Under the pieces are notes generated by a model. That model searched no databases and was not told the DNA's origin. It saw only the letters and a program-made list of their open reading frames with translations. A DNA stretch of 64,000 nt, taken from a virus. Made by a program: the position numbers and the translations under genes. Location: IMG/VR virus record IMGVR_UViG_3300020419_000004, one strand, 5' to 3'. Position 1 is the stretch's first letter. Each line of letters begins with the position of its first letter. Of the stretch, positions 8,940-64,000 are shown in pieces.

Positions 8940-10122
<1,183 letters not shown>

Positions 10123-25176: not shown

Positions 25177-25386
25177 ATGACCGATGAATTAACAAATCCG
25201 TCCATCTTTGACGGTAGTGAGGAGCTACTAGCAAAGGTTACGGTTGACATTCCTAGGAAACAGTTTACAATGTTATCAAATAGGGGATCAATGAAAACTG
25301 TCACATGCGATGATGGTGACCAATTCCTGAGAGTTCTCGATCTCGTTCGAGACACAGTAAAATTTGATGATGTGGTGTATCTTTAA
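25177..25386 (+). CDS. Hypothetical protein
   Basis: 69 aa; TAATG coupling to the ACP gene. Confidence 0.65.
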
Positions 25387-25865
25387 TGTCTTATAACAAA
25401 ACTTATTCTGAAATAAAGCAGATCCTCAAGGACAACAAGAAGATCTCTAAAATGACTATGGTCAAGGTTGCTAAGATGGCAATCATTGAGACCATGGGTG
25501 AAACCAGACAACTTGAAACAGAAGTGACATGGGATTCTAAACTAGGTGATGACCTAGAACTAGACAGTCTAGACATGGTAGAACTTGTCATGTTCTTGGA
25601 AGAATGTTTTAATGTTGAAATACCTGACGAAGAAGCAGGTGAAATAGTTACCGTTGGTGATGCTATTGAAGTAATTAAAAAATGCAAGGCAAACAAGGGT
25701 AAAAAGAAAACGATCAATGTATCTAAGTACAAGAAGGCAGCAAATCCAGATGCACCTTTAACTGCTGCAAAGGCAGCACGTGCTCAGGCAGATGCTGCTG
25801 CTAAGAAAACAGCAGAGATCGAAGCAGAAATAGATAAAGCAATAGAGGAAGATGAAAAAGTCTGA
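25386..25865 (+). CDS. acpP: Acyl carrier protein with N- and C-terminal extensions
   Basis: [36 protein letters not shown]; attachment Ser codon at 25566. Confidence 0.9.
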
Positions 25866-26037
25866 ACTAATACACTGGAGATTACAGGCAATGCTAAGAG
25901 AGCATAGTTTTAGTGATCTTGCATACTTAGGGGTAAGACCTGATAGTATTGGTATGGATCAACACTGGTATAGTATAGATGGTAATGAAGTACCAGTTGA
26001 TGCTATTCAAGAAGTAGAATCAGTAGAGGAAGAGTGA
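25852..26037 (+). CDS. Hypothetical protein
   Basis: 61 aa coupled ORF. Confidence 0.65.
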
Positions 26038-26720
26038 AGAGAGTTTATTGGGACTATACATTGGGAGACAACCCCAATGTACAATTCCCTCCTGAGATTG
26101 TAAAAGACCCAAAAAAATATCGGGCAGGATATTCGTCCAAATACGATCATGCCAAATGTCCTGCATGGAAGAAGTGGACTGAGAACTGTTGGGAAGTAAC
26201 TCAACCGTTCGATATTGGTATGAAATGTGATACCAAGAATGCAAAACTTGCTACTGACTTATCACAGAAAGCATATGATGCTTACGTTCATGTGGGAGAG
26301 AACTGGTTAGGGGGTCCTTATCCAGAAATTCAATTTAGGTTGAGTTACATGCTATGGACAAACGAGAAAGATGTATGGGTGGAACAGATCCCACATCCTT
26401 TATTGTCTAGATATGGATTTGAGTTGATACCTGCAACGTTCCCCATATCACACTGGCATAGACCACTGGTAGTTGGAATGAAGATCCTAGATACGGATCG
26501 GAACTTGATGCTCAAGCAAGGTACTCCACTATATTATTTCAGACTATACTCCAAGAAGAGTGATCCAGACTTCATCATAGAACGTAAGGCACCTCCAGAG
26601 GAGTGGCACAAAGCTAACAAACAAACTGCTATACTACGTGAGTTCCTTCCTTTCAAGTCATGGGACATCATTAAACAGAGATTATCCAATGGTGGTAAAT
26701 GTCCGATCAAGTGGAAATAG
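26034..26720 (+). CDS. Conserved cyanophage hypothetical protein (beta-rich)
   Basis: KCPAW; LKQGTPLYYFR. Confidence 0.7.
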   Translation: MKRVYWDYTLGDNPNVQFPPEIVKDPKKYRAGYSSKYDHAKCPAWKKWTENCWEVTQPFDIGMKCDTKNAKLATDLSQKAYDAYVHVGENWLGGPYPEIQFRLSYMLWTNEKDVWVEQIPHPLLSRYGFELIPATFPISHWHRPLVVGMKILDTDRNLMLKQGTPLYYFRLYSKKSDPDFIIERKAPPEEWHKANKQTAILREFLPFKSWDIIKQRLSNGGKCPIKWK

Positions 26721-27145
26721 ATTTATTTGAGGAGTGGTTCGAGGGAGAGTTTGATAACTGGGGTCAGGCATCATCTAATCCTACATCATGGGCTCATATA
26801 TTTGTGAAGCATGAGAAGATAGACGACCATAAGTTCCTTACCAGTTCACGATACAACTATGAACCGAACAAACCATACAGAGAACAGGTAGTAGAAGTGA
26901 CAGAACCTGTTGTCCTCGGTGCTCAGGTCTCTATTATAATAGTAAAAAATCCTGCATGTGATATGATATTCTCTTACATGGAAGAGGATGGTTATTTCCT
27001 TGGTAACTCATGTGATGGATGCACATGGAAGGGTAAACCACTAGAGAGTAAGGCTAAATTATACAAGGATAAGTACCATACATGGGATAAAGGGTACTGG
27101 CAAGGCAGCGAAGGTTTCTTTCACTTTGATAAGAGTTATAAATAA
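26699..27145 (+). CDS. cpeT: T-type phycobiliprotein lyase
   Basis: FEGEFDNWGQA..NP..WAHI; YNY...KPYR; CDMIF; GC; WDKG; WQGS..GFFHF. Confidence 0.85.
   Translation: MSDQVEIDLFEEWFEGEFDNWGQASSNPTSWAHIFVKHEKIDDHKFLTSSRYNYEPNKPYREQVVEVTEPVVLGAQVSIIIVKNPACDMIFSYMEEDGYFLGNSCDGCTWKGKPLESKAKLYKDKYHTWDKGYWQGSEGFFHFDKSYK
27137..27144 (+). promoter_or_regulatory. Late promoter
   Basis: TATAAATA (full T4 consensus) 28 nt before the GTG start. Confidence 0.8.
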
Positions 27146-28756: not shown

Positions 28757-28758
28757 CC

Positions 28759-29769: not shown

Positions 29770-29780
29770 AGTTCTAAAAG

Positions 29781-32700: not shown

Positions 32701-34409
32701 ATGCCTTCATCGTTGAGAATAGAAACGCATATGTAAACTCATCCACTTCAGACAGCTCTGTCTCTGGATACATCACTCTTGAAGCAAGAGATGGTGAGAC
32801 TAGTGAAGTAGACAAGAACAAGAGGATGATACCTGTTAATAGCACAGGTGGTACACAGACAGAACTTAGACGACCTAGTATCCTAAGATCTGGTAACCAC
32901 ACATTTGAATATGTTGGTTTCGGACCAGGTAACTATTCAACTGGTTTACCTTCAGTTCAGAACAGAGTTCTTACTGATGCTGAGACACTACTAGCACAGT
33001 CACAGAAGGAAGACGGTGGTATCGCATTCTACTCTGGACTTAACAGTAATGGTGACCTATTCATTGGTAACACTAGAATATCTGCTGTTACTGGTGAGGA
33101 AGCATCACTTGATACTCCATCACTATCAATCGTTGGTGAGACTGCAAACCTACGTCCTGTATTTGATGAGATCATTATCAGAGACAAGATCACAGTTGAT
33201 GACACTAACCTAGAGTCAGTATTCAAAGGTTTCTTATCAGTCAACCAAGACTTGAACGTATCCAAATCATTATTTGCTGAGGATGTCACAATTACTGGTG
33301 AGAGTGCAGACAACGAAGGAACTAAAAAGTTTGATGTTGTAACTACTGATCCTAATGGTAATACAACTGCTGCTAACAATGGTGACTATGCACTATTAAA
33401 TAACGTCACTCGTGGATCATCCTTAGGTTGGTATTGGAATACATCACAGAATGCATGGGTTAAGATGGGTCTTACCGATACTGGTAACCTTAATATAACT
33501 GGTGGATCTGGTACTGGTGATGCAACTGGTGATGTACAATTTAAGAACGGACTAGGTATTGACATACAGTCAACTGGTACATTAAATGTAAACAGTGGAA
33601 CTACTACACTTGGTGGTGAGTTAGATGTAACAGGTAGCGTTGATATTAATTCAACACAGTCATCTACAACTAACAGCACTGGTGCATTGAAAGTGGATGG
33701 TGGTGTTGGTATTGCCGAGAACCTCAACATGGGTGGTAGTGCTGACATTGATGCTAATCTAACAGTAGCAGGTAACGTAACTTTAGGTACCTCTGGTGCT
33801 AATAACGTCACATTTAATGCTGATATTAATAGTAATCTCCTACCTAATACCACTGGTGCACATAACTTAGGGTCAGTTGGACAGAAATGGGGTACAGTAT
33901 ATGCTGACGCAATCGTTGGTATCACCAATGTTACAGCAAGTATCACAGGTAACGTTACTGGTAATGTATCTGGTTCATCTGGAAGTTGTACTGGTAATGC
34001 TGCTTCGGCAACTGTATTACAGACAGCAAGAAATATTGGTGGTGTATCGTTCAACGGTGGTGCAAGCATTAATCTACCAGGTGTTAACACTGCAGGTAAC
34101 CAGAATACATCTGGAACTGCAACTCAGGCAGACAACATAAATATTGATGAAGCAAACGGTAACACCAACTATCAGGTATCGTTCTCAGCACTGAACAATG
34201 CAGGATACAACAGACAATACATTGATAGTGATGACAGTCATTTAGTGTATAATCCTGGCACTGCTACACTATCTGGATTAAATATTTCAGGTAGCACTAT
34301 AACAGCAAGCACATTTGGTAACTCAAACCAAAACGCATACGGTGCAAGGACAGTATCTACTGGTAACCCTAGTGGTGGATCCGACGGAGACATTTGGTAC
34401 AAGTATTAA
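29781..34409 (+). CDS. Large tail-fibre-like structural protein
   Basis: MALTRL; PFKSIQRAL; RPSILRSGNHTFEYVGFGPGNYST; C-terminal PSGGSDGDIWYKY. Confidence 0.8.
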   Translation: MALTRLKNVFTSKTGRCLYVNSDDFDASDAFDNRGNSPNRPFKSIQRALLEAARFSYRSGQYNDAFESFSIVLYPGDYFIDNRPGRNASGQAYVASDVAELSASSDMDLIDGSGNPNPNNILYRFNSVEGGLVIPRGTSIVGMDLRKTKLRPLYVPDPAAGGIEPSAIFRVTGGCYFWQFSFFDGPSTGVYKDPAQPSASSPPTYSHHKLTCFEYADGTNIQSTVFDTSSTALAVTDLDLYYQKVAKAFSDIPDSTSVLTADELQSRVEENRIVGPNTSGPKQISSIVTDYVNTNVFTTTAEVTTSTPHGFSVNTPVLVSGVTGTDASRFNGSYYISEIPTTTTFRYIIKDPSTGAPSGNPTATGSTVEVEVDNVDSSSPYIFNISLRSTWGMQGMHADGSKSTGFKSMVVAQFTGVSLQKDDNAFIKWDGSAYIAGSHTDGDSIYKTAYRNFHVKCSNDAVIQAVSVFAVGFADHFVALTGGDQSITNSNSNFGSCALRAKGFKSAPFTQDKAGTITHIIPPQKLARTYSATTGYTWAVTQDNKTATPTPANATHGITQGSYVRFNTIDNEETYKVDAVNGGTGVLTLNRGYRGSTANPESAFKSSVNEIPVGYVACDVQKIQYNADAGNQTWTANSGFNATIQHSCIYNGNAYYSAQLLAASGTVTSGTTAPTHTSGTVSDGAITWSYIGPINTRLYLYGYNSQATKPPYKLQGFNIGARKQDVLYVSLIESSATVTFAALISPDGTASPADSAFTNVTTQQYTPGDPAHPLQFDTQLNTWYVRCTAATSSSASVSSTGYKGIHYHLGNDSFYANALFTGASYMQRVPDNRSSRDRTYRVRYEVDSSPSALSREPINGYVIQPRNVPTGQSYGDVYYIYDIKTEQELIKSVQNGIYYMTVIKGSVSPTNGNVNTFAFSQNINNLYPTLDKDNPTEDSGAATSIASNTTVGLVTTTDGSVEDKSLSITKEIVNAFIVENRNAYVNSSTSDSSVSGYITLEARDGETSEVDKNKRMIPVNSTGGTQTELRRPSILRSGNHTFEYVGFGPGNYSTGLPSVQNRVLTDAETLLAQSQKEDGGIAFYSGLNSNGDLFIGNTRISAVTGEEASLDTPSLSIVGETANLRPVFDEIIIRDKITVDDTNLESVFKGFLSVNQDLNVSKSLFAEDVTITGESADNEGTKKFDVVTTDPNGNTTAANNGDYALLNNVTRGSSLGWYWNTSQNAWVKMGLTDTGNLNITGGSGTGDATGDVQFKNGLGIDIQSTGTLNVNSGTTTLGGELDVTGSVDINSTQSSTTNSTGALKVDGGVGIAENLNMGGSADIDANLTVAGNVTLGTSGANNVTFNADINSNLLPNTTGAHNLGSVGQKWGTVYADAIVGITNVTASITGNVTGNVSGSSGSCTGNAASATVLQTARNIGGVSFNGGASINLPGVNTAGNQNTSGTATQADNINIDEANGNTNYQVSFSALNNAGYNRQYIDSDDSHLVYNPGTATLSGLNISGSTITASTFGNSNQNAYGARTVSTGNPSGGSDGDIWYKY

Positions 34410-34412
34410 ATT

Positions 34413-35303
34413 ATGGCAGTCCCTTATAACGATGTAATAGCAGGTTATCTTGACGGACACACACGTATCAAGAAAGATGGCACATGGCAAATCGTAGAAG
34501 ATATTCAAGTAAAACACTCAGGTGCATGGCGAGATACTAAGGCAGTATACGTCAAGTCAGGTGGTTCATGGCGTACAGTCCATGATGGTGAACATTTCTT
34601 ATTCAGTTACTATCAGTCAAGTGATGATGCTAGTGAGTTTAACTTAGCAGCACATATCTCAGGACTAGGATATGGTGGTAACTTAATTAAGGGGTGTGTA
34701 CAAATAAATGCAAAGAGACAGAGAGTACATCTAGGTAGTTTCTCATCCGACTCAAAAGTATTTCTTGGTGTTGCAAATTATGGTAGCATCAAAGGACGTG
34801 GTGGTAATGGTGGATCAGTTCCTAGTCAAAATGGCCAAGGAGGTCAGACTGCAGTATATTCTGGTGGTACACCATTTATTCTCAACAACGGTGGCATCAT
34901 TGCAGGTGGTGGAGGTGGCGGTGGTGCTGGCATCAACGGTCAATGTGTCTATCAGAATACATACTATTACGGTTGTATGAAAGGTGCCCAATGCGATGGC
35001 ACTGACCAACAGTTCTCACAGCAATCAGGCGGTGGGGGAGGTGGCGGTGCTGGCTATCCTGGTGGCACTGGTTACAATGGTGGTCAAAACGGTCAGGAAA
35101 CTGGCGGTGGTGGCGGTGGCGGTAACGGTGGTTGCGGAGCAGAATCTGGTGGTGGAGGTGGAAACCTCGGAGCTGGTGGTGGTAATGCAACTAGTGGTGG
35201 TAACGGTGCTGGTAACGGTATTGGTATCCAAGGTATCAACCACAGATACCAACAAGTAATGACAGGCGACGGTGACATCCGTGGCGGTACAAGTAACACT
35301 TAG
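34413..35303 (+). CDS. Glycine-rich fibre-tip adhesin, gp38-like
   Basis: N-terminal K..G.W repeats; GRGGNGG; NNGGIIAGGGGGGG; follows the fibre gene. Confidence 0.65.
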   Translation: MAVPYNDVIAGYLDGHTRIKKDGTWQIVEDIQVKHSGAWRDTKAVYVKSGGSWRTVHDGEHFLFSYYQSSDDASEFNLAAHISGLGYGGNLIKGCVQINAKRQRVHLGSFSSDSKVFLGVANYGSIKGRGGNGGSVPSQNGQGGQTAVYSGGTPFILNNGGIIAGGGGGGGAGINGQCVYQNTYYYGCMKGAQCDGTDQQFSQQSGGGGGGGAGYPGGTGYNGGQNGQETGGGGGGGNGGCGAESGGGGGNLGAGGGNATSGGNGAGNGIGIQGINHRYQQVMTGDGDIRGGTSNT

Positions 35304-53610: not shown

Positions 53611-54000
53611 TTGGCATTAATATCGAAGTCATTTCGTGACTTCTCGTTGACTTTTGAAAAGAACGCAGTGACAAACGATGTATTGGCACTGAACAATGAA
53701 GCAGCCATTAAGGAATCAGTAAAGAATATTGTACTCTACAACTTCTACGAGAAACCTTTTGACCCAGCATTCGGTGGTAATATCATCGGATTGCTTTTTG
53801 AAAATTTTACACCAAACGACGCACAGAAGATTAAGAGACGACTTAAGCAATGCATAGGAACTCATGAACCCAGAGTGGCGGTATATGAGATAAAGGCAAC
53901 TTGGACTGAGGATCGTAATCAATTAGATGTAAGTGTAGCATACGTTATTATGGGTTTACCACCAACTTTTGATTCCATTGACGTAGCATTTAAACCATAA
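53611..54000 (+). CDS. gp25: Baseplate wedge subunit gp25
   Basis: FRDFSL.F; AIKESVKNIV; EKPFDP.FG; EPRV. Confidence 0.92.
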   Translation: MALISKSFRDFSLTFEKNAVTNDVLALNNEAAIKESVKNIVLYNFYEKPFDPAFGGNIIGLLFENFTPNDAQKIKRRLKQCIGTHEPRVAVYEIKATWTEDRNQLDVSVAYVIMGLPPTFDSIDVAFKP

Positions 54001-55853
54001 TGGCATTTAATCAGGTCAACGCCTTAGAATTTAATCAAATCAAGGCACAAATTAAAGATTACCTAAGGGCACAGGAACAATTCTCGGATTATGACTTCGA
54101 GGGATCGTCCATGACTGTCCTTTTAGACGTTTTAGCATACAATACTTACTATACAAGTGTAAATGCTAACCTTGCAGTGAACGAAGGGTTCCTTGAAACT
54201 GCTGTTTTAAGAGAAAACGTTGTAAAACTTGCTAGAATGATTGGATATACTCCAAAATCAGCAAGATCTGCTCAGACAGTAGTCGATATTTCAGTTCAGA
54301 CTGTAGTTCCATACCCAAAAACAGTTACAATCAACAAAGGATTGGTTTTAAACTTCACAGGATTGGATAATAACAACTTTGTATTCTCATTAGGGACTGA
54401 TACTACCCAATCAGTAGACAGTACGAGTGGAATTGCCACCTTTACTGGTGTACAATTGTTTGAGGGAGTGTTTCTTACCGATACTTTTGTAAAAGATATC
54501 AACCAAAGACAGAGATTTATACTAACCAATGCAAATGCAGACACAACTTCTATGAGAGTAGAGGTTACTTCTGGTACTATTACAGAAAGATACCTTCAAG
54601 CAACTGATATTACAAAGATAGATTCAACTTCTAAGGTATTTTTCCTAGAAGAATCTGAGTATGAGATACCCGAAATATTATTTGGTGACGGAAAGGTAGG
54701 AAAGGATCTAGAGAATGGAGATGTAGTAAGCGTACAGTATTCTACATCTAGTGGAACTGGTGCAAATGGACTAAAAGTGTTTGAGAATATTGGTACATTT
54801 AGAGATAACCTTAATAATACAATTACAAGTGGCATCACTATTACTGCTACTACGTTCCCTGATGGGGGTTCTCAAGCAGAAACTACGGAGTCTATTAAAT
54901 TTGCTGCTCCTAAATTCTATTCTGCCTTTGGTAGAGCAGTTTCCACACGAGATTATGAAGCAATTATTCCTCAAATATATCCAAACGTGGGTTCCATAGC
55001 ATGTTATGGTGGTGAGGAAGCAGAACCACCTGAATATGGTAAAGTATTTTTGGCAATCAAACCAAAAAATGCAGATAAATTATCTCTTTCCGAGAAAAAT
55101 GTGGTTCTTAAGAGGTTAAGAGAGTATTCAGTTGCTGCAATTCAGCCTTCTATCATTGATCCGTCCATATTATACATTGATGTGGACAGTTTTGTGTACT
55201 TTAACCCGAATATAACGCGGAGAGAAGCGTCTGGAGTGAAAAATACCGTAATTAATTCATTAACTGTCTTGAATAATAGCGGAGAGTTCAATAAATTTGG
55301 CGGAAAATTCAAATTTTCAAAGCTTCAGAGTATAATTGATAGTTCAGAGACCTCAATTACGTCCAATATCACTCGTCTCAAGATGAGAAAGAACGTAACT
55401 GTCGATCTGGGTGCACGTGTGAACTACAAGATATGCTACGGTAACCGCATTAAGCAAGGAACTAGCACAAAACCTACCGTTATTAGTAGTGGATTTAAGA
55501 TTGTTGGAGATGATTTCAACACTTACTACTTAAATGATGACGGAGCGAGTTCTTTGAGACTCTATTATGTCAAAGGAACTGGTGAATATGAGTATGTTGA
55601 TGGTCTATGGGGTACAGTTGACTACTCCATGGGTGAAATTGTAATCAATGATTTGATTATTTCATCTACAAGTGTAGCAAATAATCAATTACAGATATCT
55701 GGAACTCCTGAATCTAATGATATCATATCTTTACGAGAAACCTACTTGACAGTAGGCATAGATAATACGACTGTAAGTGTTGTAGAAGACACTATCAGTA
55801 GTGGTTCAAATATTTCTGGTACAGGAGTAGTACCAGAGTCCAGCTATAGTTAG
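54000..55853 (+). CDS. gp6: Baseplate wedge subunit gp6
   Basis: FSDYDFEGS; LAYNTYY; E.FL.TA.LRENVV; RAVS..DY; GGEEAEPPEYGKVF. Confidence 0.93.
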   Translation: MAFNQVNALEFNQIKAQIKDYLRAQEQFSDYDFEGSSMTVLLDVLAYNTYYTSVNANLAVNEGFLETAVLRENVVKLARMIGYTPKSARSAQTVVDISVQTVVPYPKTVTINKGLVLNFTGLDNNNFVFSLGTDTTQSVDSTSGIATFTGVQLFEGVFLTDTFVKDINQRQRFILTNANADTTSMRVEVTSGTITERYLQATDITKIDSTSKVFFLEESEYEIPEILFGDGKVGKDLENGDVVSVQYSTSSGTGANGLKVFENIGTFRDNLNNTITSGITITATTFPDGGSQAETTESIKFAAPKFYSAFGRAVSTRDYEAIIPQIYPNVGSIACYGGEEAEPPEYGKVFLAIKPKNADKLSLSEKNVVLKRLREYSVAAIQPSIIDPSILYIDVDSFVYFNPNITRREASGVKNTVINSLTVLNNSGEFNKFGGKFKFSKLQSIIDSSETSITSNITRLKMRKNVTVDLGARVNYKICYGNRIKQGTSTKPTVISSGFKIVGDDFNTYYLNDDGASSLRLYYVKGTGEYEYVDGLWGTVDYSMGEIVINDLIISSTSVANNQLQISGTPESNDIISLRETYLTVGIDNTTVSVVEDTISSGSNISGTGVVPESSYS

Positions 55854-55859
55854 TAACAG

Positions 55860-58800
55860 ATGACAAATTCTTCCTGGAAGGTTAGTTCGTGGACTACCCC
55901 GACCACAACGGTTTCTGTACCACCAGTACCGTCTGAGGTCAGTCCTGAATCTAAATCGCAAATATCCCTCAGTGTTGCGGGACAGTTTGCTTCGTTTATA
56001 CAGGAAAATTATCCAACCTTCATATCGTTTGTAAAAGAATACTATAAGTCACAAGAATTAAAGGGATACTGTTTTGATGTCATTCAGAACTGGTCTGATT
56101 ATTATAATATTGACAACTACGGTGGTCTAGTTACTGAGACTACACTAATTTCAGCGTTAACAACTACCTCTTCAGCAGTTGACGTTGAATCTACTCGTGA
56201 TTTTCCTAATGAAGGTCTTTTAATGGTAGATGATGAGATCATTTACTACCAAAAGAAAGGATCTACACTTTTTCAAGACTGTGCAAGGGGATTTAACGCT
56301 GTAAAGTCAGTTGGAGAGGTTGGAACTTTCCAATTTGAAGAAACAACTGCTGCAACTCATGCTCTTGGAGCAAAAGTTGTCAATTTAAACAATATATTTC
56401 CACTTTACATACTTGGAAAGTTCAAAGAACAGTTTTTAGCGACTTTTCCAAAGAACTTTGCAAGTGGAGTTACTGAATCAACAGTAATTAAGAGAATTAA
56501 AGACTTCTATGCTGCAAAGGGGTCTACAAGGTCATTCCAATTTGTTTTAAGAACACTATTTGGCGTAGAATCAGAAGTTAACTACCCAAGAGAGAGAATA
56601 TTCAAACCATCCGATGCATATTACACCTCCAGAGAGGTTATTCGTGCGGTTGCTGTCTCTGGAGACCCTATTGCACTTGTTGGACAAGTATTATACCAAG
56701 AAAACGACGCAAACGACGCAAATGTTGCTTCTGCAAGAATTTACGTTAAGGGAGTTGTAGAAGTATTCACTCCAAGTGGCACAATCTTTGAAATTGACGT
56801 AGATACCAATAATTCACTAGGTACATTTGTTACACCGTACAAATCTACTCTTGCAAATGACTTAGGTGGTCAATTAACAGATACAACTGTTACAGTTGAC
56901 TCTACATTAGGTTGGCCAGAGGCAAATGGTCGATTTAGGATCGAAGATGAGATTATAAGTTATACAGACAAGACTGTAACCCAATTTCTTGGTTGTAACC
57001 GTGCTAGAGAGAATACAATTATCAATGCACATGATTCAGGTCAAGAAGTCTTTGCTGCATTCAAGATTTTCGGATATTCTAATGTAGATAACTCAGAAAT
57101 CCAGTTAAAGGTATATGGTGGTACTAGAGGTGTAATATTGAACGATGGTGGTAAGTATTATCTACCAGACAGTAAAGTCACAACACCTGCAGCACCTGGC
57201 TTTGATAGTATTGATCCTCTATGGGATAGTTTTACATATAATGTGAGACGTGCTCTCAGAGGGTCTTCAGCGACCCTAGGAAGCGTACTTGCTGATGGTT
57301 CGGTACGTTGTACTGTTGTGACTAAAGAGAGACATTATTTAAAAAGAGATGATGTCATTAGAATACTGAATGCACCTGAAGACATCTACAATAATATGCA
57401 CGATGTTGCAGGTATTATTGATGACTTTACATTTGAGTTTATATTCAGCTCAACACCTGCAAATGGTATAACAGGATTTGAATTCTACATTGCTAGAGAG
57501 TTTGCATTTGGTAAGAGTGACTATAATTCAATTAATGTAGGAATTGAGAAGTATACCGCAGATGTACAGAACACTTATAAGAGTAGTACAGATGCACTTG
57601 TAACTAGTACAGGTTTACCATCACATAAGATAGGTCCTTTCGGTACTAACGACTTAAATCCTGGCAACCAGAGATATCTTAAGAGAATACCTCTTGTACC
57701 ATCTACTAAGAGTACAAAGACTGCTACTCCAGTAGGTCAAGTTGGTATTGGATCAAATGGTGTACCTTTCTTCTCATATAAGGGAGAAGGTAAAAAGAAA
57801 TATGGTGGATTGAAGTCTATTACGAAAATTAACGGTGGAACTGGATATGATATCACAAACCCTCCTACAGTTGAGTTTGAAGCAGACTATAAACTCAATA
57901 CACCCTATGCTTCAGGTATAAGAGTCAAATATAATGGTAATAGGTATAAATCGTTACAAGCAGGTATATCTTCTAATACATTATACCCAACACACAATAC
58001 TGGAGACGCTGCAGTAGGTCAAATCACTTGGGAATACGAAGGAACGCCAGCAGCAGCGACTGTTTCCGTAAAAGGATCAGTAACAGCTATAAACGTTACT
58101 AATGGTGGTAGTGGATATACAACAGAACCAATTATATCAATTACTGGTGGTGGAACAACCTCTGATAACCAAGCATCTGCTACTGCACAGATTACATCGG
58201 GTACTGTAACTGGTATTAACGTTGTTAGTGGTGGATCTGGATATACCAGTGTCCCAACTATCACAATTACTGGTGGTAATGGTTCTGGGGCAACTGCAAC
58301 CGCAACTTGTCGAGGTCCTGTTGATACTATTAACATTTCTAATGCAGGAACTCAATATACATACGAACCAACTATCAATTTGATCTCTGGTAGTGGTGCT
58401 GTTGCATATCCGTCAATATTGAACGGAAAGATCGAAAGTATTATTGTTACATTTGGTGGTAGTGGATATTTTGGTGCTCCAGACGTTATTATCACTGGAG
58501 ATGGAGTTGGTGCTACTGCATTTGCTCAAGTAGACCTTTCTAGCAACATTGTTACAGGTATTGTCATAACAAACAAAGGTGCAGGTTACTCTGCAGGTGC
58601 TACAACCGTTAGTATCGTATATCCTGGTTCTGGTGCGTCATTCCAGACCAATTTGACAGAATTAACATATAATGAAGCAGCAACAGCAGAAGAACTAGGA
58701 GTTCCGTCAAATCAGTTCACAAATAGGAAAACTGTAGACGCTTCAAACGGTGCAACCATGCAAGGTGAGAACTATTTGATATATGGTGGAGAATATGGAT

Positions 58801-61800
58801 ATTTGTACAATCCTAAGCAACTTAGATTCCTTTTAAGGGATAATATTGACGCAAACATGACTGAGTTGAATCCAACCTCTCATTCACCGATTATTGGGTA
58901 TGCATTTGACGGACATCCGATATATGGACCTTATGGTTTCGAGGATGCTGAAAATACCGCACCATACAACTCATATAAGTTGATGGTTTCCAGTTATAAC
59001 GTAAAGTCCTCTAGAGATGCTCTTCTAAGCGGTCTAACAGACCCTATGGGGACTTATATCGACGATTATGAATATACAGAAGGATATGGAGATTTAGATC
59101 AATATAATGGAAGATTTTGTGTTACTCCCGAATATCCAAATGGAGTTTATGCATATTTCGCTACAATTAAGGGATCTGCGGGAGAACCGAAGTTTCCGTA
59201 CTTTGTAGGACCTAATTTCTACTCAGAAGCGGATGCTGTCAACTGGAATGGTAATGGTCTGCAGAAAAACTTCACAGAAGACGCAGTTAGGTATAAAGCA
59301 CCATTTATCAGCACAGATAACATTGTAGCGAAGAGAAAACAGTTAGATAACCGAGTTGACTTCTTTTTAGCACTAGAAGACACCACAACTTTGATTGTGA
59401 TGGAAACTGGGGAGATATTAACTTATCTTGAAGATGGAATTGGGTATTACAGTTACTATCCTACTATTAGAGGTGGTACTGCTGATTCTATGGTTGTATC
59501 AGGTACTAATAAGTATTCATCCTCTGGCGTTGACCAATATCTAGTTGAAGGTGGTGGTAAAGAGTATAAAGTCAATGATAGACTTCAATTTGACAATACT
59601 GGCACTGGTGGAGAAGGTATAAGTGCAATTGTATCAAATGTACAAGGTACTACAGTAAGTTCCATCAGTATGATGGTTTTATCAGGTGAGGACAGATATC
59701 TTGCAACTGTTAACACTACAGAGAACCATTATTTGCAAGTTAACGATACAGCTGTCATTACAGTAGCAGATAATCTTTATACGAGAAATATCAAGACAAA
59801 AATCATTGGTAGCAGATATCACTTCAAATATGGAGATATGTTGAGTGGTGGAATGAAACTTATTGCCCCATATCAAAATACTACCGCATATGTCTATGGT
59901 GACTTAATATATGTTGCAGATAGAGTTTATAGAGCTGCACAAGGTACATCTGGTTCATCAGCACCTACACACACTTCTGGGACTGTTTCTGACGGTTCTA
60001 TGGACTGGACTTACATGAGATTACGTACAGATGGTAATTTGTACCAAGATGGTTGGTCTAGCATCACAGGTGGGTCTGGATACACAAATGGCACATATTC
60101 TGGAGTTCCTATAACAACTAATGGATCTGGTAAGGGTGCAAAAGCAACTATCGTCGTTTCTGGTGGTTCTGTAACAAATGTTACACTTACAGAGATGGGA
60201 ACCGCATATAACGTCGGTGACACTATAACTGCTGCAGATATTAACCTTGGTAATGCAGGTGGGTCTGGATTTACAATAACATTGACTGAAGTTGAAACTG
60301 AAGCACAAATTCAACTTAATAAAGCTCATCAGACTGAAATTGGCGATATAGTCAATATCTCAGGTGTATCACCTGCGTCTTACAATAAGACAGACTATAC
60401 AGTTGTTCGTAGTGATACATTAAGAAGATTTGTCGTAAAACGCAACTTTGGAAGTGTTGCAGCTGCAACAACGACTAATGCCGAGGTTTATGTCCAAGAA
60501 CCGAAGTTAAAACTCATTGACGGACACAAATACACTTTTGACACTTCTGATGCAAGTAATGTTGGAAAAACACTTGCATTTACTTTAGATTCGGCAAATA
60601 CCGATATTTTCACTTATAAGAACATTACTGACGAAGTTAGAGACGCAGTTACTGGAGATCAGACCTCAATCACTATTTTGGTCGATGGTTTACCTGGTAT
60701 CTTCTATTATTTCGATATTCAAGGATCTACAAGCGGAAATTACTTCCAAGCGATTAATGATCCGATTATCGGCACTCAAACCGTATTCTCAAAAACTGAT
60801 ACATCATTTACCTATGAAATGGCAGTTGCACCTGAAAGTGGATATGCAGCTGCAACTTACACTACAGACTCCGTTTATCCTTCAGGAGGGATTGCATCTA
60901 TCTCTATTGGTGATCCTGGTCGAAATTACTCATCTCTTCCAAAATTATTAAGTTCTACTAGATCTGGTTCTGGAGCAACTGCGGTAGCGACTATTTCTGG
61001 TTCTTTATCAAATGTATCGGTTACTAATCAAGGATCTGGATATAATCAGGCATCTTTACCAAGTGGAGTTGTTACGTTACCAGATTACGTAGATTTAACA
61101 CTTACTAACATACTTGGGTCATTTGTTCCAAATGAGATCCTTATTTCACAAACAGTCCAAGGTAACCAGACTGCTAGGGGACAAGTAATTAATTGGAACC
61201 CAGTTACCTCTGTATTGAGAATTAGACCACTTAGGAACGAAAGAACTGGTGCAGGTAATAAAGGATACATTATGTTCAGTACTGGGGTTGCTGAGACCAA
61301 TAATCTCTTTAGTGCAGATTCACAAGCATCTATTAGTGCTATAAGTGGAACCCAAGCAACTGTAGCAACTGTAGTGTCTGGTGGTGGTGCACTTTCAGAA
61401 GTGACCGTTACTGCTGCAGGTTCTAACTACAGAGCTGCTCCTAACGTTATATTTGATGATCCTTACTATGGATCTGTAGATACTATTACTACACTAGTCC
61501 AACCAGCTGGTAACGGTACATATACCGCAGACCAGACTACAACTGGTGTAACTCAAACTAGTGTTGCTCCTGTCAACGGTACAGGTGCTACTTTCACAGT
61601 TGTCACAGATGGTAATGGAAGAATAGCTACTGTCACCGTGACTGGTGGTGGTAGTGCATATGCATTGGGTGATGTAATCACTTTTGATGGTACAAAGATA
61701 CCAGGTGGTGCTTCTAACGAAGACTTTACTGTGACAGTTAATGGATTGGCACATGCTAATCCTGCAACGATCGCTACTCTGTTAGATGCTGCTGTAGATA

Positions 61801-64000
61801 CCATTACTATTACTAATAGTGGATCTGGTTATCTATCTGCTCCTAATATCGAAGTTAGTGGTGGTAATGGAATTAATGCTAAGTTCAATGCTACTATAGT
61901 CAATCAGGGTGTCAGTGCAATTAATATCGAGACTGGTGGTCTTCAGTACCAAAGTGCTCCTGTAGTCAATATCACACAAAAAACAGGTTCAGGTGCTTCT
62001 ATACTACTCAAGTCATCAGACATGGGTAAGATATTGAAGATAGGTGGAGATAACATCACATTCAACTATTCTCACGATAGAACCTTAAAACCAGAACTCA
62101 ATACAACATATAACCTTCAACTTACAAGAACTCAGGTTCTTGATTACTTCACTATCACTTCTGGTGGTGCGAATTTCGTATCTACACCTGAGATTGTTCT
62201 TGTCGGTGGAAGTGGGTCATTATATGAGACAAGGGCATTAATAGAGAACGAAGTCATACAAACCATTCAAATCATCAATGAAGGTAGAGGTTTCTTAGCT
62301 GCTCCTACAGTTGAAGCAAGAGTAACTCATACATGGGTTGGATTGCAGTCTAATAGTACTTTAAACTTCCCATACAATACTAAAATACCAACAGGGACTA
62401 AAGTAACCCTACAACAGAACAGTGGTCAGTTCCCACCACCTCTTGCTGTTGGTACAACTTATTATGCTGTTGCAGCAACTATAGCAAATGGATTGGCAGA
62501 TAACCAGATCAGACTAGCTACAAGTCTTGCAAATGCAAATACTGGAACAGTCATTTCGTTTACTGGTGCACCAGTGGGTGATGCTCTAACTGGACAAACA
62601 TCCTTTACACTTCAGACTAGTGACCTAGGAGATAATATTACTGCGTTTATGAAACCTGCTACTTTCTCTGTTGGAGAGAGGATTTATCAGGGTGCATCAA
62701 CATCTTCCTTTACTGCATATGGATTTGTTAAGAACTGGGATGCTTCTGGTCGTGTTGTAAGTGTAGAGATAGTAGAAGGTGAGTTTAAGGTCGGTGAACC
62801 TGTATTTGGTGAAGAGACTGCTGCATTTGGTCAGATCCATGAGTTTACTAGAGCAGATGCTGTATTTGAGGTTTCACCAATCAGTACATCAGCAACCACA
62901 TGGGAAAAGACAACTGGTTTCTTAGATCTTAACGAACAGAGACTATATGACAGTGACAGGTATCAGGAATTCTCATATGACATCTCCTCATCTATTAATA
63001 TTAATGATTGGAAGAACCCACTTAAGTTTGCTGCTCATCCTGCAGGCTTTAAAGTCGTTGGTACACAAGTACTATCACAAGCAAGCATTAAAGACCATAG
63101 ATCTAAACCAACTCTTAACCTTAACTCTGGTAATTCATACGATTGGTGGATTCCAGCTACAAATAGTCTAGGAACTACCTTTAATGGTACAACATACGTC
63201 ATACCTAAACCATCTGCTAGAAATACTGGTAAGTTATCAGTTATTCAGAACTTTGCTCTAGGTAAGGCAGACTATAGTGCAGCAGTTCCAACTGAGGTTC
63301 AAGTATATGGTAAGCAACTACTAGACATTCAGAAGATCTTATCTTGTATTGCTTATAAGGCAGATGACATCAGTGATAGGTCTCTCAGTTTTGATGGATC
63401 ATCATCTAGTCTCGTAGATACAAGCACTAATAGAATTACTCTTACAGGTCACAACCTAGTTGATGATCAACGTGTCATCTATAACTCTGGTGGAGATAGA
63501 TTCCAAGATGCTAGAGATTTGGTCATTAAGAATATTGATTATATCGTAGAAGAGGTCATTGGTGATCTAAACTACACATACCCAAATCTTATATACAACT
63601 CAACAACCTGTGCTAGAGATACAAGACTAATATTAGCTGCATTTGCAAATGATTTAAGATATGGTGGTAACCAGTTTAGTTTAACAGCAGTCAATTCTTA
63701 TGTTGGGCAGACTATATCTCAAGGTAATGCTTATATTGACGCTGCTAATCTCTTAAAGGACAATAAGAACCTAATTGCTGCTGAAGCAGTGTATCAAATG
63801 TTACAAGACCAAACAGTTGGTATACCAAGTGGTTATGCAGGTGTACCAGGTGGAGATCAGAACTGTATTGACGATATTGTAGATGTAATTGAGGCAATTG
63901 CTTATAACCTACGTTATGGTGGTAATAGTGAAGTATGGGATGCTGCAAACTACTATGTAAACACAGTTCACCTAGATGGTGAAGAAACCCAATCAGTATG
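55860..64000 (+). CDS. Giant baseplate wedge initiator (gp7-like), over 2700 aa, 3'-truncated and absent from the ORF track
   Basis: ATG 55860; translated blocks at the start, middle and end share one frame; QENYPTFISFVKEYY, IKDFYAAKGS, YHYH-like block, GSGY repeats, terminal Cys repeats. Confidence 0.85.
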   Translation, partial: MTNSSWKVSSWTTPTTTVSVPPVPSEVSPESKSQISLSVAGQFASFIQENYPTFISFVKEYYKSQELKGYCFDVIQNWSDYYNIDNYGGLVTETTLISALTTTSSAVDVESTRDFPNEGLLMVDDEIIYYQKKGSTLFQDCARGFNAVKSVGEVGTFQFEETTAATHALGAKVVNLNNIFPLYILGKFKEQFLATFPKNFASGVTESTVIKRIKDFYAAKGSTRSFQFVLRTLFGVESEVNYPRERIFKPSDAYYTSREVIRAVAVSGDPIALVGQVLYQENDANDANVASARIYVKGVVEVFTPSGTIFEIDVDTNNSLGTFVTPYKSTLANDLGGQLTDTTVTVDSTLGWPEANGRFRIEDEIISYTDKTVTQFLGCNRARENTIINAHDSGQEVFAAFKIFGYSNVDNSEIQLKVYGGTRGVILNDGGKYYLPDSKVTTPAAPGFDSIDPLWDSFTYNVRRALRGSSATLGSVLADGSVRCTVVTKERHYLKRDDVIRILNAPEDIYNNMHDVAGIIDDFTFEFIFSSTPANGITGFEFYIAREFAFGKSDYNSINVGIEKYTADVQNTYKSSTDALVTSTGLPSHKIGPFGTNDLNPGNQRYLKRIPLVPSTKSTKTATPVGQVGIGSNGVPFFSYKGEGKKKYGGLKSITKINGGTGYDITNPPTVEFEADYKLNTPYASGIRVKYNGNRYKSLQAGISSNTLYPTHNTGDAAVGQITWEYEGTPAAATVSVKGSVTAINVTNGGSGYTTEPIISITGGGTTSDNQASATAQITSGTVTGINVVSGGSGYTSVPTITITGGNGSGATATATCRGPVDTINISNAGTQYTYEPTINLISGSGAVAYPSILNGKIESIIVTFGGSGYFGAPDVIITGDGVGATAFAQVDLSSNIVTGIVITNKGAGYSAGATTVSIVYPGSGASFQTNLTELTYNEAATAEELGVPSNQFTNRKTVDASNGATMQGENYLIYGGEYGYLYNPKQLRFLLRDNIDANMTELNPTSHSPIIGYAFDGHPIYGPYGFEDAENTAPYNSYKLMVSSYNVKSSRDALLSGLTDPMGTYIDDYEYTEGYGDLDQYNGRFCVTPEYPNGVYAYFATIKGSAGEPKFPYFVGPNFYSEADAVNWNGNGLQKNFTEDAVRYKAPFISTDNIVAKRKQLDNRVDFFLALEDTTTLIVMETGEILTYLEDGIGYYSYYPTIRGGTADSMVVSGTNKYSSSGVDQYLVEGGGKEYKVNDRLQFDNTGTGGEGISAIVSNVQGTTVSSISMMVLSGEDRYLATVNTTENHYLQVNDTAVITVADNLYTRNIKTKIIGSRYHFKYGDMLSGGMKLIAPYQNTTAYVYGDLIYVADRVYRAAQGTSGSSAPTHTSGTVSDGSMDWTYMRLRTDGNLYQDGWSSITGGSGYTNGTYSGVPITTNGSGKGAKATIVVSGGSVTNVTLTEMGTAYNVGDTITAADINLGNAGGSGFTITLTEVETEAQIQLNKAHQTEIGDIVNISGVSPASYNKTDYTVVRSDTLRRFVVKRNFGSVAAATTTNAEVYVQEPKLKLIDGHKYTFDTSDASNVGKTLAFTLDSANTDIFTYKNITDEVRDAVTGDQTSITILVDGLPGIFYYFDIQGSTSGNYFQAINDPIIGTQTVFSKTDTSFTYEMAVAPESGYAAATYTTDSVYPSGGIASISIGDPGRNYSSLPKLLSSTRSGSGATAVATISGSLSNVSVTNQGSGYNQASLPSGVVTLPDYVDLTLTNILGSFVPNEILISQTVQGNQTARGQVINWNPVTSVLRIRPLRNERTGAGNKGYIMFSTGVAETNNLFSADSQASISAISGTQATVATVVSGGGALSEVTVTAAGSNYRAAPNVIFDDPYYGSVDTITTLVQPAGNGTYTADQTTTGVTQTSVAPVNGTGATFTVVTDGNGRIATVTVTGGGSAYALGDVITFDGTKIPGGASNEDFTVTVNGLAHANPATIATLLDAAVDTITITNSGSGYLSAPNIEVSGGNGINAKFNATIVNQGVSAINIETGGLQYQSAPVVNITQKTGSGASILLKSSDMGKILKIGGDNITFNYSHDRTLKPELNTTYNLQLTRTQVLDYFTITSGGANFVSTPEIVLVGGSGSLYETRALIENEVIQTIQIINEGRGFLAAPTVEARVTHTWVGLQSNSTLNFPYNTKIPTGTKVTLQQNSGQFPPPLAVGTTYYAVAATIANGLADNQIRLATSLANANTGTVISFTGAPVGDALTGQTSFTLQTSDLGDNITAFMKPATFSVGERIYQGASTSSFTAYGFVKNWDASGRVVSVEIVEGEFKVGEPVFGEETAAFGQIHEFTRADAVFEVSPISTSATTWEKTTGFLDLNEQRLYDSDRYQEFSYDISSSININDWKNPLKFAAHPAGFKVVGTQVLSQASIKDHRSKPTLNLNSGNSYDWWIPATNSLGTTFNGTTYVIPKPSARNTGKLSVIQNFALGKADYSAAVPTEVQVYGKQLLDIQKILSCIAYKADDISDRSLSFDGSSSSLVDTSTNRITLTGHNLVDDQRVIYNSGGDRFQDARDLVIKNIDYIVEEVIGDLNYTYPNLIYNSTTCARDTRLILAAFANDLRYGGNQFSLTAVNSYVGQTISQGNAYIDAANLLKDNKNLIAAEAVYQMLQDQTVGIPSGYAGVPGGDQNCIDDIVDVIEAIAYNLRYGGNSEVWDAANYYVNTVHLDGEETQSV

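What the first reader, a model, noticed from the sequence alone, without database searches (positions are those of the whole stretch)
63498..64000. Phycobiliprotein-like, Cys-bearing repeats in a giant virion protein of a phage that encodes PebS and CpeT
Seen: the gp7-like frame ends with two helical repeats, RFQDARDLVIKNIDYIVEEVIGDLNYTYPNLIYNSTTCARDTRLILAAFANDLRYGGN and AYIDAANLLKDNKNLIAAEAVYQMLQDQTVGIPSGYAGVPGGDQNCIDDIVDVIEAIAYNLRYGGN (Cys codons 63609 and 63864). Established: phycobiliproteins bind bilin at Cys82/84 in [21 protein letters not shown] (phycocyanin alpha) or ACLRDMEIILRYVTY (beta), preceded by N...IV.....L....P.LI. The repeats keep the spacing C-x-x-D-x4-[LI]-x6-L-x2-GG, and repeat 1 also matches the upstream pattern. 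Inference: these may be globin-fold bilin-binding domains, so the phage could chromophorylate its own baseplate with PebS-made phycoerythrobilin, for light sensing, UV screening or antenna mimicry. This would give phage CpeT a phage-encoded target. Caveats: T-type lyases normally serve Cys153/155; repeat 2 lacks the Arg; similar CxRD repeats occur in other cyanophage structural proteins and could be plain helical bundles.
Basis: partly seen in the sequence, partly recalled or inferred. Interest (0 to 1): 0.9.

Follow-up and report, generated by a model that had tools for sequence, protein, structure and literature searches.

The report
Phycobiliprotein-like domains in cyanophage baseplate protein
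The giant baseplate protein of this marine cyanobacterial virus contains true relatives of its host's light-harvesting pigment proteins that keep the pigment-attachment residues, so it can now be tested whether the virus particle carries pigment; pigment binding itself is not shown.

Summary
Both quoted repeats and their Cys codons (63609, 63864) lie at the open 3' end of a gp7-like ORF (55860-63998). Repeat 2 passes Pfam's Phycobilisome family (PF00502) above its gathering score. Sequence searches of the PDB return only phycobiliproteins. An AlphaFold model of the full module, taken from a 94%-identical ortholog, superposes on phycoerythrin beta (Z 14.8, 148 of 159 residues). The "repeats" are the front halves of two nested domains, and the rest lies beyond the window. 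Across about 1,380 copies in cyanophage tail and baseplate proteins, the bilin triad C-x-R-D is 98/92/99% conserved. A second invariant Cys aligns with beta-Cys153, the site served by T-type lyases. The window also encodes CpeT and a PebS-type reductase. Two supporting statistics shrink on phylogenetic correction: Asp8-Cys137 covariation, and cpeT-module co-occurrence (14/0 versus 2/5 genomes), which reduces to about two events. PebS does not track the modules. Bilin binding is untested (my odds about 45%). The closest isolates, P-HM1 and P-HM2, do not adsorb in the dark, which suggests a testable link. This scan has already found the same domain family on other cyanophage DNA. I found no publication describing it.

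The parts
55860..63998 (+). gp7-like giant baseplate wedge protein, 2713 aa seen, open at the 3' end. The full length is 4784 aa in ortholog L002:2564-16918.
   Evidence: Synteny gp25-gp6-gp7-gp8 in P-HM2. 62-64% identical to P-HM1/P-HM2/MED4-213 gp7 over the first 138 aa of the query 63300-63998. YHYH domain PF14240 at E 5.8e-25, and weak hits to Baseplate_wedge and CBM_5_12.
63492..63710 (+). Domain D1, N-terminal half (helices A/B, E, F; module-profile positions 3-77). Its G and H helices lie about 150 aa downstream, beyond the window.
   Evidence: P-HM2 has the same domain uninterrupted.
63507..63509 (+). Asp of D1 at the position aligned with beta-Asp39, which H-bonds the pyrrole nitrogens of the beta153 bilin in phycocyanin.
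   Evidence: alignments; PMC6614406
63609..63620 (+). C-A-R-D of D1, the full phycobiliprotein Cys82-x-Arg84-Asp85 chromophore motif.
   Evidence: CXRD is named as the chromophore motif in PMC10151467.
63720..63998 (+). Domain D2, inserted in the loop after helix F of D1. The window holds its first 88 of 160 profile positions.
   Evidence: The full D2 from L002 was folded and matched to phycobiliproteins.
63738..63740 (+). Asp of D2 at the position aligned with beta-Asp39.
63864..63875 (+). C-I-D-D of D2. Cys and Asp are kept, but the Arg is replaced by Asp, a minority variant (4% of copies).
26699..27145 (+). Phage CpeT (T-type bilin lyase family), 148 aa. It sits between the gp5 baseplate hub and the tail-fibre genes, 29 kb from gp7.
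   Evidence: PF06206 at E 2.1e-11. Same neighbourhood as in P-HM2.
9478..10122 (+). Ferredoxin-dependent bilin reductase, 214 aa. Called PebS-type because the related phages P-HM1 and P-HM2 carry pebS.
   Evidence: PF05996 at E 5.5e-16; Sullivan 2010 Table 3
54000..55853 (+). gp6 baseplate wedge subunit, directly upstream of gp7.
   Evidence: 80-81% identical to P-HM1/P-HM2 gp6; annotation

Best explanation
SHOWN: the window's last 500 bases encode the beginnings of two nested domains of the gp7-like baseplate protein of a P-HM1/P-HM2-like Prochlorococcus myovirus. These domains are true homologs of phycobiliprotein beta-subunits. They have the globin core (helices A/B, E, F, G, H) without the X-Y dimerisation hairpin. 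D2 is inserted into the loop after helix F of D1, and a third copy (D3) lies near the C-terminus in the ortholog. The family occurs only in marine cyanophage tail, baseplate and fibre proteins, with up to about 33 module stretches per protein. INFERRED, most likely mechanism: the modules are bilin-binding. A phycoerythrobilin-type bilin would be thioether-linked to the Cys of C-x-R-D and held by the Asp and Arg. In this phage's class of module a second bilin would attach at the Cys that aligns with beta-Cys153, held by the Asp that aligns with beta-Asp39. Attachment would occur in the infected cell, by phage CpeT at the second site, by host S-type lyases, or autocatalytically as in BBAG globins. 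The bilin would come from the host or from phage HO and PebS. FURTHER INFERENCE: the pigmented modules on the baseplate act as a light sensor or light-driven conformational switch that gates adsorption.
For: Homology. PF00502 scores above its gathering cut-off. Both a single-sequence search and a 17-sequence profile search of PDB sequences return only phycobiliprotein-family chains, 55 of 55 and 47 of 47. They are colinear at both ends of the domain, with the two Cys aligned to Cys82/84 and beta-Cys153/158. The AlphaFold model has pLDDT 81 and pTM 0.83. Foldseek's top 50 PDB hits are all phycobiliprotein-family chains, nearly all beta chains, with TM about 0.70. An aligner that does not use Foldseek puts eight phycobiliprotein-family chains first: PE beta Z 14.8, rmsd 2.8 A, 148 of 159 residues, chain residues 30-184. 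Haem globins follow at Z 12 or less.

Ligand-site conservation. In 1,381 copies from 150 representatives clustered at 50% identity, C is 98%, R 92% and D 99% conserved. These are three of the five most conserved positions, in modules that are otherwise about 30% identical. CXRD is the recognised chromophore motif, and distant CXRD-bearing paralogs (BBAG-1/3) self-attach bilins (PMC10151467). In this phage's lineage D8, C50, D53 and C136 are invariant. beta-Asp39 and beta-Asn35 hold the beta153 bilin (PMC6614406).

Context. The family is confined to cyanophages among 50,697 phage records. cpeT and a bilin reductase are in the window. No genome of 21 has cpeT without modules. The order cpeT, 2OG oxygenase, module-bearing giant ORF, gp12 is shared by S-PM2 and Syn1.

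Phenotype. P-HM1 and P-HM2 do not adsorb in the dark, and S-PM2 adsorption needs light independently of photosynthesis. P-SSM2 and P-SSP7 adsorb in the dark (PMC6628666). The first three carry modules and the last two have none.
Against: No bilin binding has been measured. Fold and motif conservation do not prove a ligand. The X-Y hairpin and the alpha partner are missing, yet in phycocyanin alpha-chain residues surround ring D of the beta153 bilin, so that pocket would be incomplete. D2 in the window has Asp in place of the Arg. About three quarters of copies in the wider family show no alignable last helix, and the second Cys is only 61% conserved where that helix aligns. The Asp8-Cys137 association (Fisher 6e-39) rests on about 7 changes on a tree and is not significant once kinship is allowed for. 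The cpeT-module association (Fisher 0.001) rests on one clade of seven phages, about two events. Sf-CH8 has a module but no cpeT. pebS and ho1 occur in P-SSM2 and S-SSM7, which have no modules. cpeT is a middle gene like psbA, while g7 is late. The match with the adsorption phenotype covers five phages only, and P-SSM2 adsorption is also enhanced by light. To my knowledge nobody has reported coloured or fluorescent cyanophage virions. A rough estimate says the 18-36 bilins per virion expected from gp7 alone would be invisible at usual titres.
Confidence: 0.45

Rival explanations
1. Same homology, but the domain has been co-opted as a chromophore-free structural, spacer or adhesion module of the baseplate and fibres. 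The conserved Cys, Arg and Asp would then serve folding, inter-domain contacts or receptor binding.
For: The modules sit in giant, highly repetitive virion proteins, are nested and multiplied up to about 33 times, and are often shortened to four helices. That pattern is typical of structural repeat expansion. The dimerisation hairpin and alpha partner are lost. Part of the family varies at the Arg. cpeT is not co-expressed with g7. The co-occurrence statistics are not significant after phylogenetic correction. No pigmented virion has been reported.
Against: It gives no reason why exactly the three bilin-contact residues should be among the most conserved positions (98/92/99%) in copies that are otherwise about 30% identical. 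In phycobiliproteins these residues contact the chromophore, not the fold. Nor does it explain why the second Cys and its Asp sit at the beta153 and beta39 positions. The family is restricted to phages of bilin-containing hosts.
Confidence: 0.4
2. The conserved Cys/Asp face binds something other than a bilin, such as a metal ion, a haem-type tetrapyrrole or a host surface ligand, or it acts as a redox-sensitive thiol.
For: Cys plus two acidic residues (profile positions 44, 47 and 58; D or N at 58 in 96-100% of copies) lie on one face of helix E (helical periodicity is my inference). Globin folds bind many ligands: globin-coupled sensors and photocobilins are the next structural matches at Z 11-12.
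Against: No His is conserved at a haem-ligand position in A1. The sequence similarity is specifically to phycobiliproteins, not to haem globins. C-x-R-D is the bilin motif.
Confidence: 0.1
3. The two invariant cysteines form a stabilising disulfide in the released virion.
For: Two invariant Cys per module in this lineage, in a protein that ends up extracellular.
Against: The first Cys is kept in 132 of 329 modules that lack the second Cys, and in 989 of 1,013 copies with no alignable last helix. The two Cys align with Cys82 and Cys153 of beta subunits, which hold two bilins about 34 A apart in phycocyanin (distance from memory, not measured here).
Confidence: 0.03
4. The resemblance is chance or convergent similarity between helical bundles, with no homology.
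For: Individual E-values are modest: 4e-4 to 8e-4 against PDB sequences and about 2e-3 in Foldseek. Helical proteins often reach middling Z-scores (note).
Against: Four independent methods agree, and every top hit is a phycobiliprotein: 55 of 55, 47 of 47, Foldseek's top 50 and VIA-align's top 8. The match is colinear over the whole domain, shares the motif, is 20-25% identical, and the Pfam gathering score is passed.
Confidence: 0.02

Closest known systems
Phycobiliprotein beta subunits (CpeB, CpcB, cryptophyte beta chains; Pfam PF00502)
   Same: Same globin-type fold over helices A to H: Z 14.8, TM about 0.7, 20-25% identity. C-x-R-D on helix E. A second Cys at the start of helix H with an Asp on helix A, as at beta153 and beta39. 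The N..D....N..IV..A pattern of helices A/B.
   Different: No X-Y hairpin, so no alpha-beta dimer or (alpha-beta)3 ring is expected. The domain is embedded, nested and multiplied inside giant virion proteins. It is encoded by a phage. Pigment binding is not shown. No Asn at the position of the methylated beta-Asn72.
ApcE (core-membrane linker) phycobiliprotein domain
   Same: A phycobiliprotein-fold domain built into a large multidomain protein. Structural match Z 13.4 (4xxi_A) and Z 12.8-13.1 in phycobilisome structures. From memory, ApcE attaches its bilin without a lyase.
   Different: ApcE has one such domain, it sits in the allophycocyanin core of the phycobilisome, and its Cys position differs. 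The phage modules are many and lie in the tail.
BBAGs, bilin biosynthesis-associated globins (Rockwell et al. 2023, PMC10151467)
   Same: Distant phycobiliprotein paralogs outside phycobilisomes. BBAG-1/3 keep CXRD and self-assemble with bilins. They sit near bilin-synthesis genes. The bacterial fluorescent protein 8u0f appears among the hits.
   Different: BBAGs are small stand-alone bacterial proteins. The phage modules score closer to light-harvesting beta subunits, and their phylogenetic position relative to BBAGs was not resolved here.
T4 gp7 baseplate wedge protein
   Same: Gene position between gp6 and gp8. Late expression in P-HM2. A weak Baseplate_wedge match at the N-terminus (E 0.0018).
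   Different: Four to five times longer than T4 gp7, with YHYH, carbohydrate-binding-like, repeat and phycobiliprotein-like inserts that T4 gp7 lacks.
Cyanobacteriochrome-like GAF folds in cyanophages (PMC12481020)
   Same: Another bilin-photoreceptor fold found in phage proteomes by structure prediction, also without demonstrated chromophore binding.
   Different: A different fold (GAF, not globin), different phages (freshwater siphoviruses without photosynthesis genes), and not reported as a virion tail component.

Membership tests
Phycobiliprotein family (Pfam PF00502) | Sequence match to the family profile above the curated gathering score | tested here: met
   Window repeat 2: 26.7 bits against a cut-off of 22.2, E 6.3e-6, profile positions 23-96 of 155. 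P-HM2's copies give no hit at E<0.1, so the match is marginal across the family.
Phycobiliprotein family (Pfam PF00502) | Globin-type fold with helices A, B, E, F, G, H | tested here: met
   AF2 model of the full D2 from the 94% ortholog: pLDDT 81. Foldseek's top 50 are all phycobiliprotein-family chains. VIA-align: PE beta Z 14.8, rmsd 2.8 A, 148 of 159 residues.
Phycobiliprotein family (Pfam PF00502) | N-terminal X-Y helical hairpin that forms the alpha-beta monomer | tested here: not met
   The structural alignment starts at residue 30 of PE beta. The module profile starts at helix A and is preceded by another domain. It is therefore not a canonical subunit.
Phycobiliprotein family (Pfam PF00502) | C-x-R-D chromophore motif on helix E (Cys82/84, Arg, Asp) | tested here: met
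   D1 is CARD (63609-63620). D2 is CIDD, lacking the Arg. D3 in the ortholog is CIRD. Family-wide conservation: C 98%, R 92%, D 99%.
Phycobiliprotein beta subunits | Second attachment Cys (beta153/155/158) with Asp39 on helix A | tested here: met
   C136 and D8 are invariant in the 17-sequence lineage alignment, and HMMER aligns them with the beta-chain GDCS Cys and with Asp39. Only the Asp positions lie inside the window; the Cys positions are read from ortholog L002.
Phycobiliprotein family (Pfam PF00502) | Covalently bound bilin | not testable with these tools
   Needs expression with bilin synthesis genes, or virion mass spectrometry.
Phycobiliprotein family (Pfam PF00502) | Assembly into (alpha-beta)3 rings and phycobilisome rods with linkers | not tested
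   Not expected, given the missing X-Y hairpin and the embedding in a 4,784-aa virion protein.
T4-type gp7 baseplate wedge protein | Position in the baseplate wedge gene block and sequence match to wedge profiles | tested here: inconclusive
   Synteny gp25-gp6-gp7-gp8 is met. The PF23786 match is 18.2 bits, below the cut-off of 27.
Substrate of a T-type bilin lyase (CpeT/CpcT) | Lyase-dependent bilin attachment at the beta153-equivalent Cys; lyase and substrate co-occurring | tested here: inconclusive
   Among 21 genomes: cpeT with modules 14, cpeT without modules 0, modules without cpeT 2, neither 5. This amounts to about two events on the gp6 tree. The biochemistry is not testable here, and the complex predictor was closed.

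The most novel reading that the evidence does not exclude
Cyanomyovirus particles carry covalently bound bilins on phycobiliprotein-derived modules of the baseplate and tail fibres. These modules would work as a virion-borne photoreceptor that permits adsorption only in light. The long-unexplained phage lyase CpeT would be the enzyme that loads the beta153-type site. This would be the first light sensor built into a virus particle.
Probability: 0.2. Interest if true: 0.95.

Novelty: new variant of a known kind. Interest (0 to 1): 0.8.

Why it matters
Two questions about marine cyanophages have been open for 15 to 20 years. First, why do phages of Prochlorococcus, which has no phycobilisomes, carry bilin synthesis genes and a bilin lyase homolog? 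Sullivan et al. 2010 call the role of pcyA and pebS 'a mystery'. Second, why do some cyanomyoviruses, including P-HM1, P-HM2 and S-PM2, adsorb only in light and independently of host photosynthesis? Liu et al. [quoted passage not shown] A phage-encoded, virion-located homolog of the bilin-carrying protein that keeps both attachment sites gives both questions a concrete target that can be tested at the bench, in phages that are already in culture. If the modules turn out to be pigment-free, they remain a clear case of a host photosynthetic antenna fold captured, nested and multiplied as a building block of phage tails.

Tried and rejected
1. Folding the whole nested region (A2, 325 aa, 7 near-identical sequences) failed with pLDDT 38.8. 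The 3-D nesting is therefore not shown. It rests on HMM coordinates, on the uninterrupted D1 of P-HM2, and on the insertion point falling in the loop after helix F of the D2 model.
2. The Asp8-Cys137 covariation looked decisive (93/91/14, Fisher 6e-39). On a tree it reduces to 7 changes and 4 independent pairs, sign test p about 0.5. I do not count it as evidence of coupling.
3. The cpeT-module co-occurrence was perfect in 16 genomes and 14/0/2/5 in 21. All discordant or negative genomes that could be placed on the gp6 tree fall in one clade, supported at 96/97 and later 98/97. S-PRM1 gave no gp6 match and could not be placed.
4. The disulfide rival is rejected on the distribution of the two Cys.
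5. The ESM Atlas gave pilin clusters at 0.89, below its own reliability line, and is uninformative.
7. A profile scan of 185,579 prokaryote genomes found no relative, but it used only one degenerate pattern.
8. Megablast of the window's end against phage records found nothing. An exact 52-mer from the window's end found nothing in viral or metagenome contigs. The downstream parts are therefore read from L002 (94% identical), not from this genome.
9. Gasper et al. 2017 on phage CpeT is not held in the library, so what I say about it is from memory.
10. Literature searches for earlier descriptions found none. The library omits most subscription journals.


Full report
WHAT IS THERE. The window ends inside a 2,713-codon open frame (55860-63998, + strand, no stop before the window's end). 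The frame follows a gp6 homolog (54000-55853) that is 80-81% identical to gp6 of Prochlorococcus phages P-HM1 and P-HM2. The closest annotated relatives of the frame are the gp7 'baseplate wedge' proteins of P-HM2, P-HM1 and MED4-213. In P-HM2 the gene sits in the order gp25-gp6-gp7-gp8 and is 4,454 aa long. An uncultured viral contig (L002) is 94% identical over the last 233 residues of the window. It gives the full protein at 4,784 aa, followed by gp8. The window also encodes a ferredoxin-dependent bilin reductase (9478-10122, PF05996, E 5.5e-16) and a CpeT homolog (26699-27145, PF06206, E 2.1e-11).

IS IT PHYCOBILIPROTEIN-LIKE? Yes, by four routes. (1) Pfam's Phycobilisome family PF00502 matches repeat 2 at 26.7 bits, above the curated cut-off of 22.2 (E 6.3e-6). 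(2) phmmer of the last 173 residues against all PDB sequences returns 55 hits. Every one is a phycobiliprotein, the best E is 4e-4, and the repeat-2 Cys sits on Cys84 of phycocyanin alpha. (3) A profile of 17 non-redundant full modules (A1) returns 47 hits, all from the phycobiliprotein family. The N-terminal block aligns to the beta-chain GNKRLDAVN...IV..A...C-x-R-D stretch. A second, colinear block puts the module's last-helix Cys on the GDCS Cys (beta153/158). (4) An AlphaFold model of the complete D2 module from L002 has five helices, pLDDT 81 and pTM 0.83. Foldseek's top 50 PDB hits are all phycobiliprotein-family chains, nearly all beta chains, with TM about 0.70 over 155-160 columns at 20-25% identity. 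An aligner that does not rely on Foldseek also puts eight phycobiliprotein-family chains first. The best is phycoerythrin beta at Z 14.8, rmsd 2.8 A, 148 of 159 residues, chain residues 30-184. Far-red allophycocyanin scores 14.5 and the ApcE bilin domain 13.4. Globin-coupled sensors, photocobilins and RsbR follow at Z 12 or below. The alignment starts at residue 30, so the module lacks the X-Y hairpin that makes the alpha-beta monomer. It is a phycobiliprotein-type globin core, not a canonical subunit.

ARCHITECTURE: NESTED, NOT TANDEM. An HMM of the module finds the following in the window's protein and its orthologs. Last comes a C-terminal half (72-144). P-HM2 has the outer domain in one piece. 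So D2 is inserted into D1, at the loop after helix F in the D2 model. More distant relatives (L021, L023) nest a third level deep, at the long G-H loop. A third copy, D3, lies about 1,270 residues further on in L002. Inside the window only D1's front half (63492-63710) and the first 88 profile positions of D2 (63720-63998) are visible. My attempt to fold the whole nested region failed (pLDDT 39), so the three-dimensional nesting is an inference from sequence.

CONSERVATION OF THE PIGMENT SITES. In the lineage alignment the invariant residues include D8, C50 and D53 (the C-x-x-D) and C136. A profile search of 1.84 billion representative proteins finds 1,024 relatives at E<=1e-3 and 648 at E<=1e-10. 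They are giant proteins of up to 6,982 aa with up to 33 matched stretches. In 1,381 copies from the best 150, the Cys is 98% conserved, the Arg two places on 92%, and the Asp 99%. These are three of the five most conserved positions. Rockwell et al. describe CXRD as the phycobiliprotein chromophore motif. They also show that distant CXRD-bearing paralogs (BBAG-1/3) attach bilins without lyases (PMC10151467). The second Cys is less general: 61% where the last helix aligns, and most copies show no alignable last helix. In phycocyanin the beta153 bilin is held by beta-Asp39 at its pyrrole nitrogens and by beta-Asn35 and Thr149 at its propionates (PMC6614406). The module's D8 and N4 align with Asp39 and Asn35. 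All three modules of this phage lineage belong to the two-site class. D2 has Asp in place of the Arg (C-I-D-D), a 4% minority variant.

TESTS THAT WEAKENED ATTRACTIVE ARGUMENTS. Asp8 and Cys137 go together in 184 of 198 copies (Fisher 6e-39). On a tree of those copies Cys137 changes only 7 times and only 4 independent pairs exist. The association therefore describes two clades of modules and shows no repeated co-evolution. For cpeT, I scanned 21 complete cyanomyovirus genomes with the module profile and with PF06206. For six of them cpeT presence is taken from Sullivan's Table 3. Fourteen have both: P-HM1, P-HM2, P-SSM4, P-RSM4, P-SSM7, S-PM2, Syn9, Syn19, Syn33, Syn1, S-ShM2, S-SSM5, S-SM1 and S-CAM7. 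Five have neither: P-SSM2, S-SM2, S-SSM7, S-PRM1 and S-8S55. Two have modules but no cpeT: Sf-CH8, and ACG-2014f with weak partial hits only. None has cpeT without modules. The raw Fisher p is 0.001. But every negative or discordant genome that could be placed lies in one clade of seven on a gp6 tree (98/97 support), which means about two events. The pattern fits 'cpeT is kept only where modules exist' but does not establish it. pebS and ho1 do not track the modules at all: P-SSM2 and S-SSM7 have both genes and no module. In P-HM2, cpeT is a middle gene like psbA, whereas g7 and the neighbouring fibre genes are late (PMC5082946, supplement 3). The lyase would therefore be made before its putative substrate, not with it.

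CONTEXT THAT SUPPORTS A LINK. Among 50,697 phage records of all hosts, both a module from this window and a divergent multi-copy member hit only Synechococcus or Prochlorococcus phages, plus marine single-cell virus records. The hits fall in genes annotated as baseplate wedge, short tail fibre, tail protein or virion structural protein. BFVD structure matches are the same proteins, and none is named as phycobiliprotein-like. In S-PM2 and Syn1, cpeT lies two genes upstream of a module-bearing giant ORF, in the order GC730, cpeT, 2OG-Fe(II) oxygenase, giant ORF, gp12. Profile search found the Syn1 cpeT although the table as extracted from Sullivan et al. shows none. In the window and in P-HM2, cpeT sits between the gp5 hub and the tail-fibre genes.

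A PHENOTYPE WORTH CONNECTING. Liu et al. 2019 show that P-HM1 and P-HM2, the closest isolates to this phage, do not adsorb to Prochlorococcus in the dark. P-SSM2 adsorbs in the dark, though less than in light, and the podovirus P-SSP7 adsorbs freely. For S-PM2, light-dependent adsorption does not depend on host photosynthesis, and the authors suggest light-sensitive receptors or tail fibres (PMC6628666). P-HM1, P-HM2 and S-PM2 carry 6, 5 and 9 profile matches, and P-SSM2 and P-SSP7 carry none. Five phages are an anecdote, not a test, but they point to a clear experiment.

VERDICT. Homology to phycobiliprotein beta subunits is as secure as sequence and predicted structure can make it (about 0.95). 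The most likely function, at about 0.45, is bilin binding at the conserved Cys sites. A pigment-free structural module is nearly as likely, at about 0.40. A virion-borne light switch with CpeT as its lyase is the most novel reading that remains open, at about 0.2. The same domain family has been noted repeatedly by this scan on other cyanophage DNA. Those notes agree on the homology. My tests add the phylogenetic corrections, one counter-example to 'modules only with cpeT', the lack of any PebS link, and the nested layout in this gp7. I found no publication describing these domains, within a library that lacks most subscription journals.

Noticed in passing
window 8277-8939, 8936-9496, 9478-10122: Two 2OG-Fe(II) oxygenase genes (PF13759, PF13640) lie directly upstream of the bilin reductase and overlap it. 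In S-PM2 and Syn1 a 2OG-Fe(II) oxygenase (T4-GC104) sits between cpeT and the module-bearing giant ORF. This hints at a recurring link between oxygenases and bilin or module genes.
   Followed up: no
L002:11900-14900 (downstream of the window's end in the ortholog): About 20 copies of a 45-60-aa repeat, each with a '...F(S/T)C...(H)TYPR(x)(T/S)DP...' signature and one Cys, fill the stretch between the nested domains and D3. The family and role of these repeats are unknown.
   Followed up: no
window about 58870-59170 (gp7 residues about 1004-1104): A YHYH domain (PF14240, E 5.8e-25) and weak carbohydrate-binding module 5/12 matches lie inside gp7. P-HM2 gp7 has the same YHYH domain.
   Followed up: no
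P-HM2 NC_015284 82592-83908; L002's contig (G001:C1) 22032-26348: Relatives carry a second giant ORF (3,682 and 4,213 aa) with three or more further phycobiliprotein-like modules. It lies outside this window, which holds modules only at 63492-63998.
   Followed up: partly
window 25386-25865 and 26034-26720: An acyl-carrier-protein gene (PP-binding, E 1.3e-6) and a 228-aa ORF with no Pfam match lie just upstream of cpeT. The 228-aa ORF overlaps cpeT by 22 bases. P-HM2 has ACP and an endonuclease V gene at this place.
   Followed up: no
Syn1 GU071105 19938-20477: Syn1 encodes a long, host-like CpeT (PF06206, E 1.5e-35; annotated cpeT, T4-GC338), although Table 3 of Sullivan et al. 2010, as extracted, shows none. 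Phage CpeTs come in a long form (187-189 aa: S-PM2, Syn1) and a short, divergent form (open frames of 135-156 aa; 224 aa in Syn9): the window, P-HM2, S-SM1, Syn9, P-SSM4.
   Followed up: partly
S-PM2 AJ630128 168556-173383: The record lists 16 tRNA features inside the coordinates of CDS S-PM2p218, the module-bearing giant ORF. This is most likely a coordinate offset in the record's annotation.
   Followed up: no
window 27173-35303: Downstream of cpeT lie ORFs of 527, 336, 1,542 and 296 aa. They match the P-HM2 block of YadA-like protein, hypothetical, tail fibre and host-specificity protein. The last one has a weak gp38 adhesin match (E 2e-4). None contains a phycobiliprotein-like module.
   Followed up: partly
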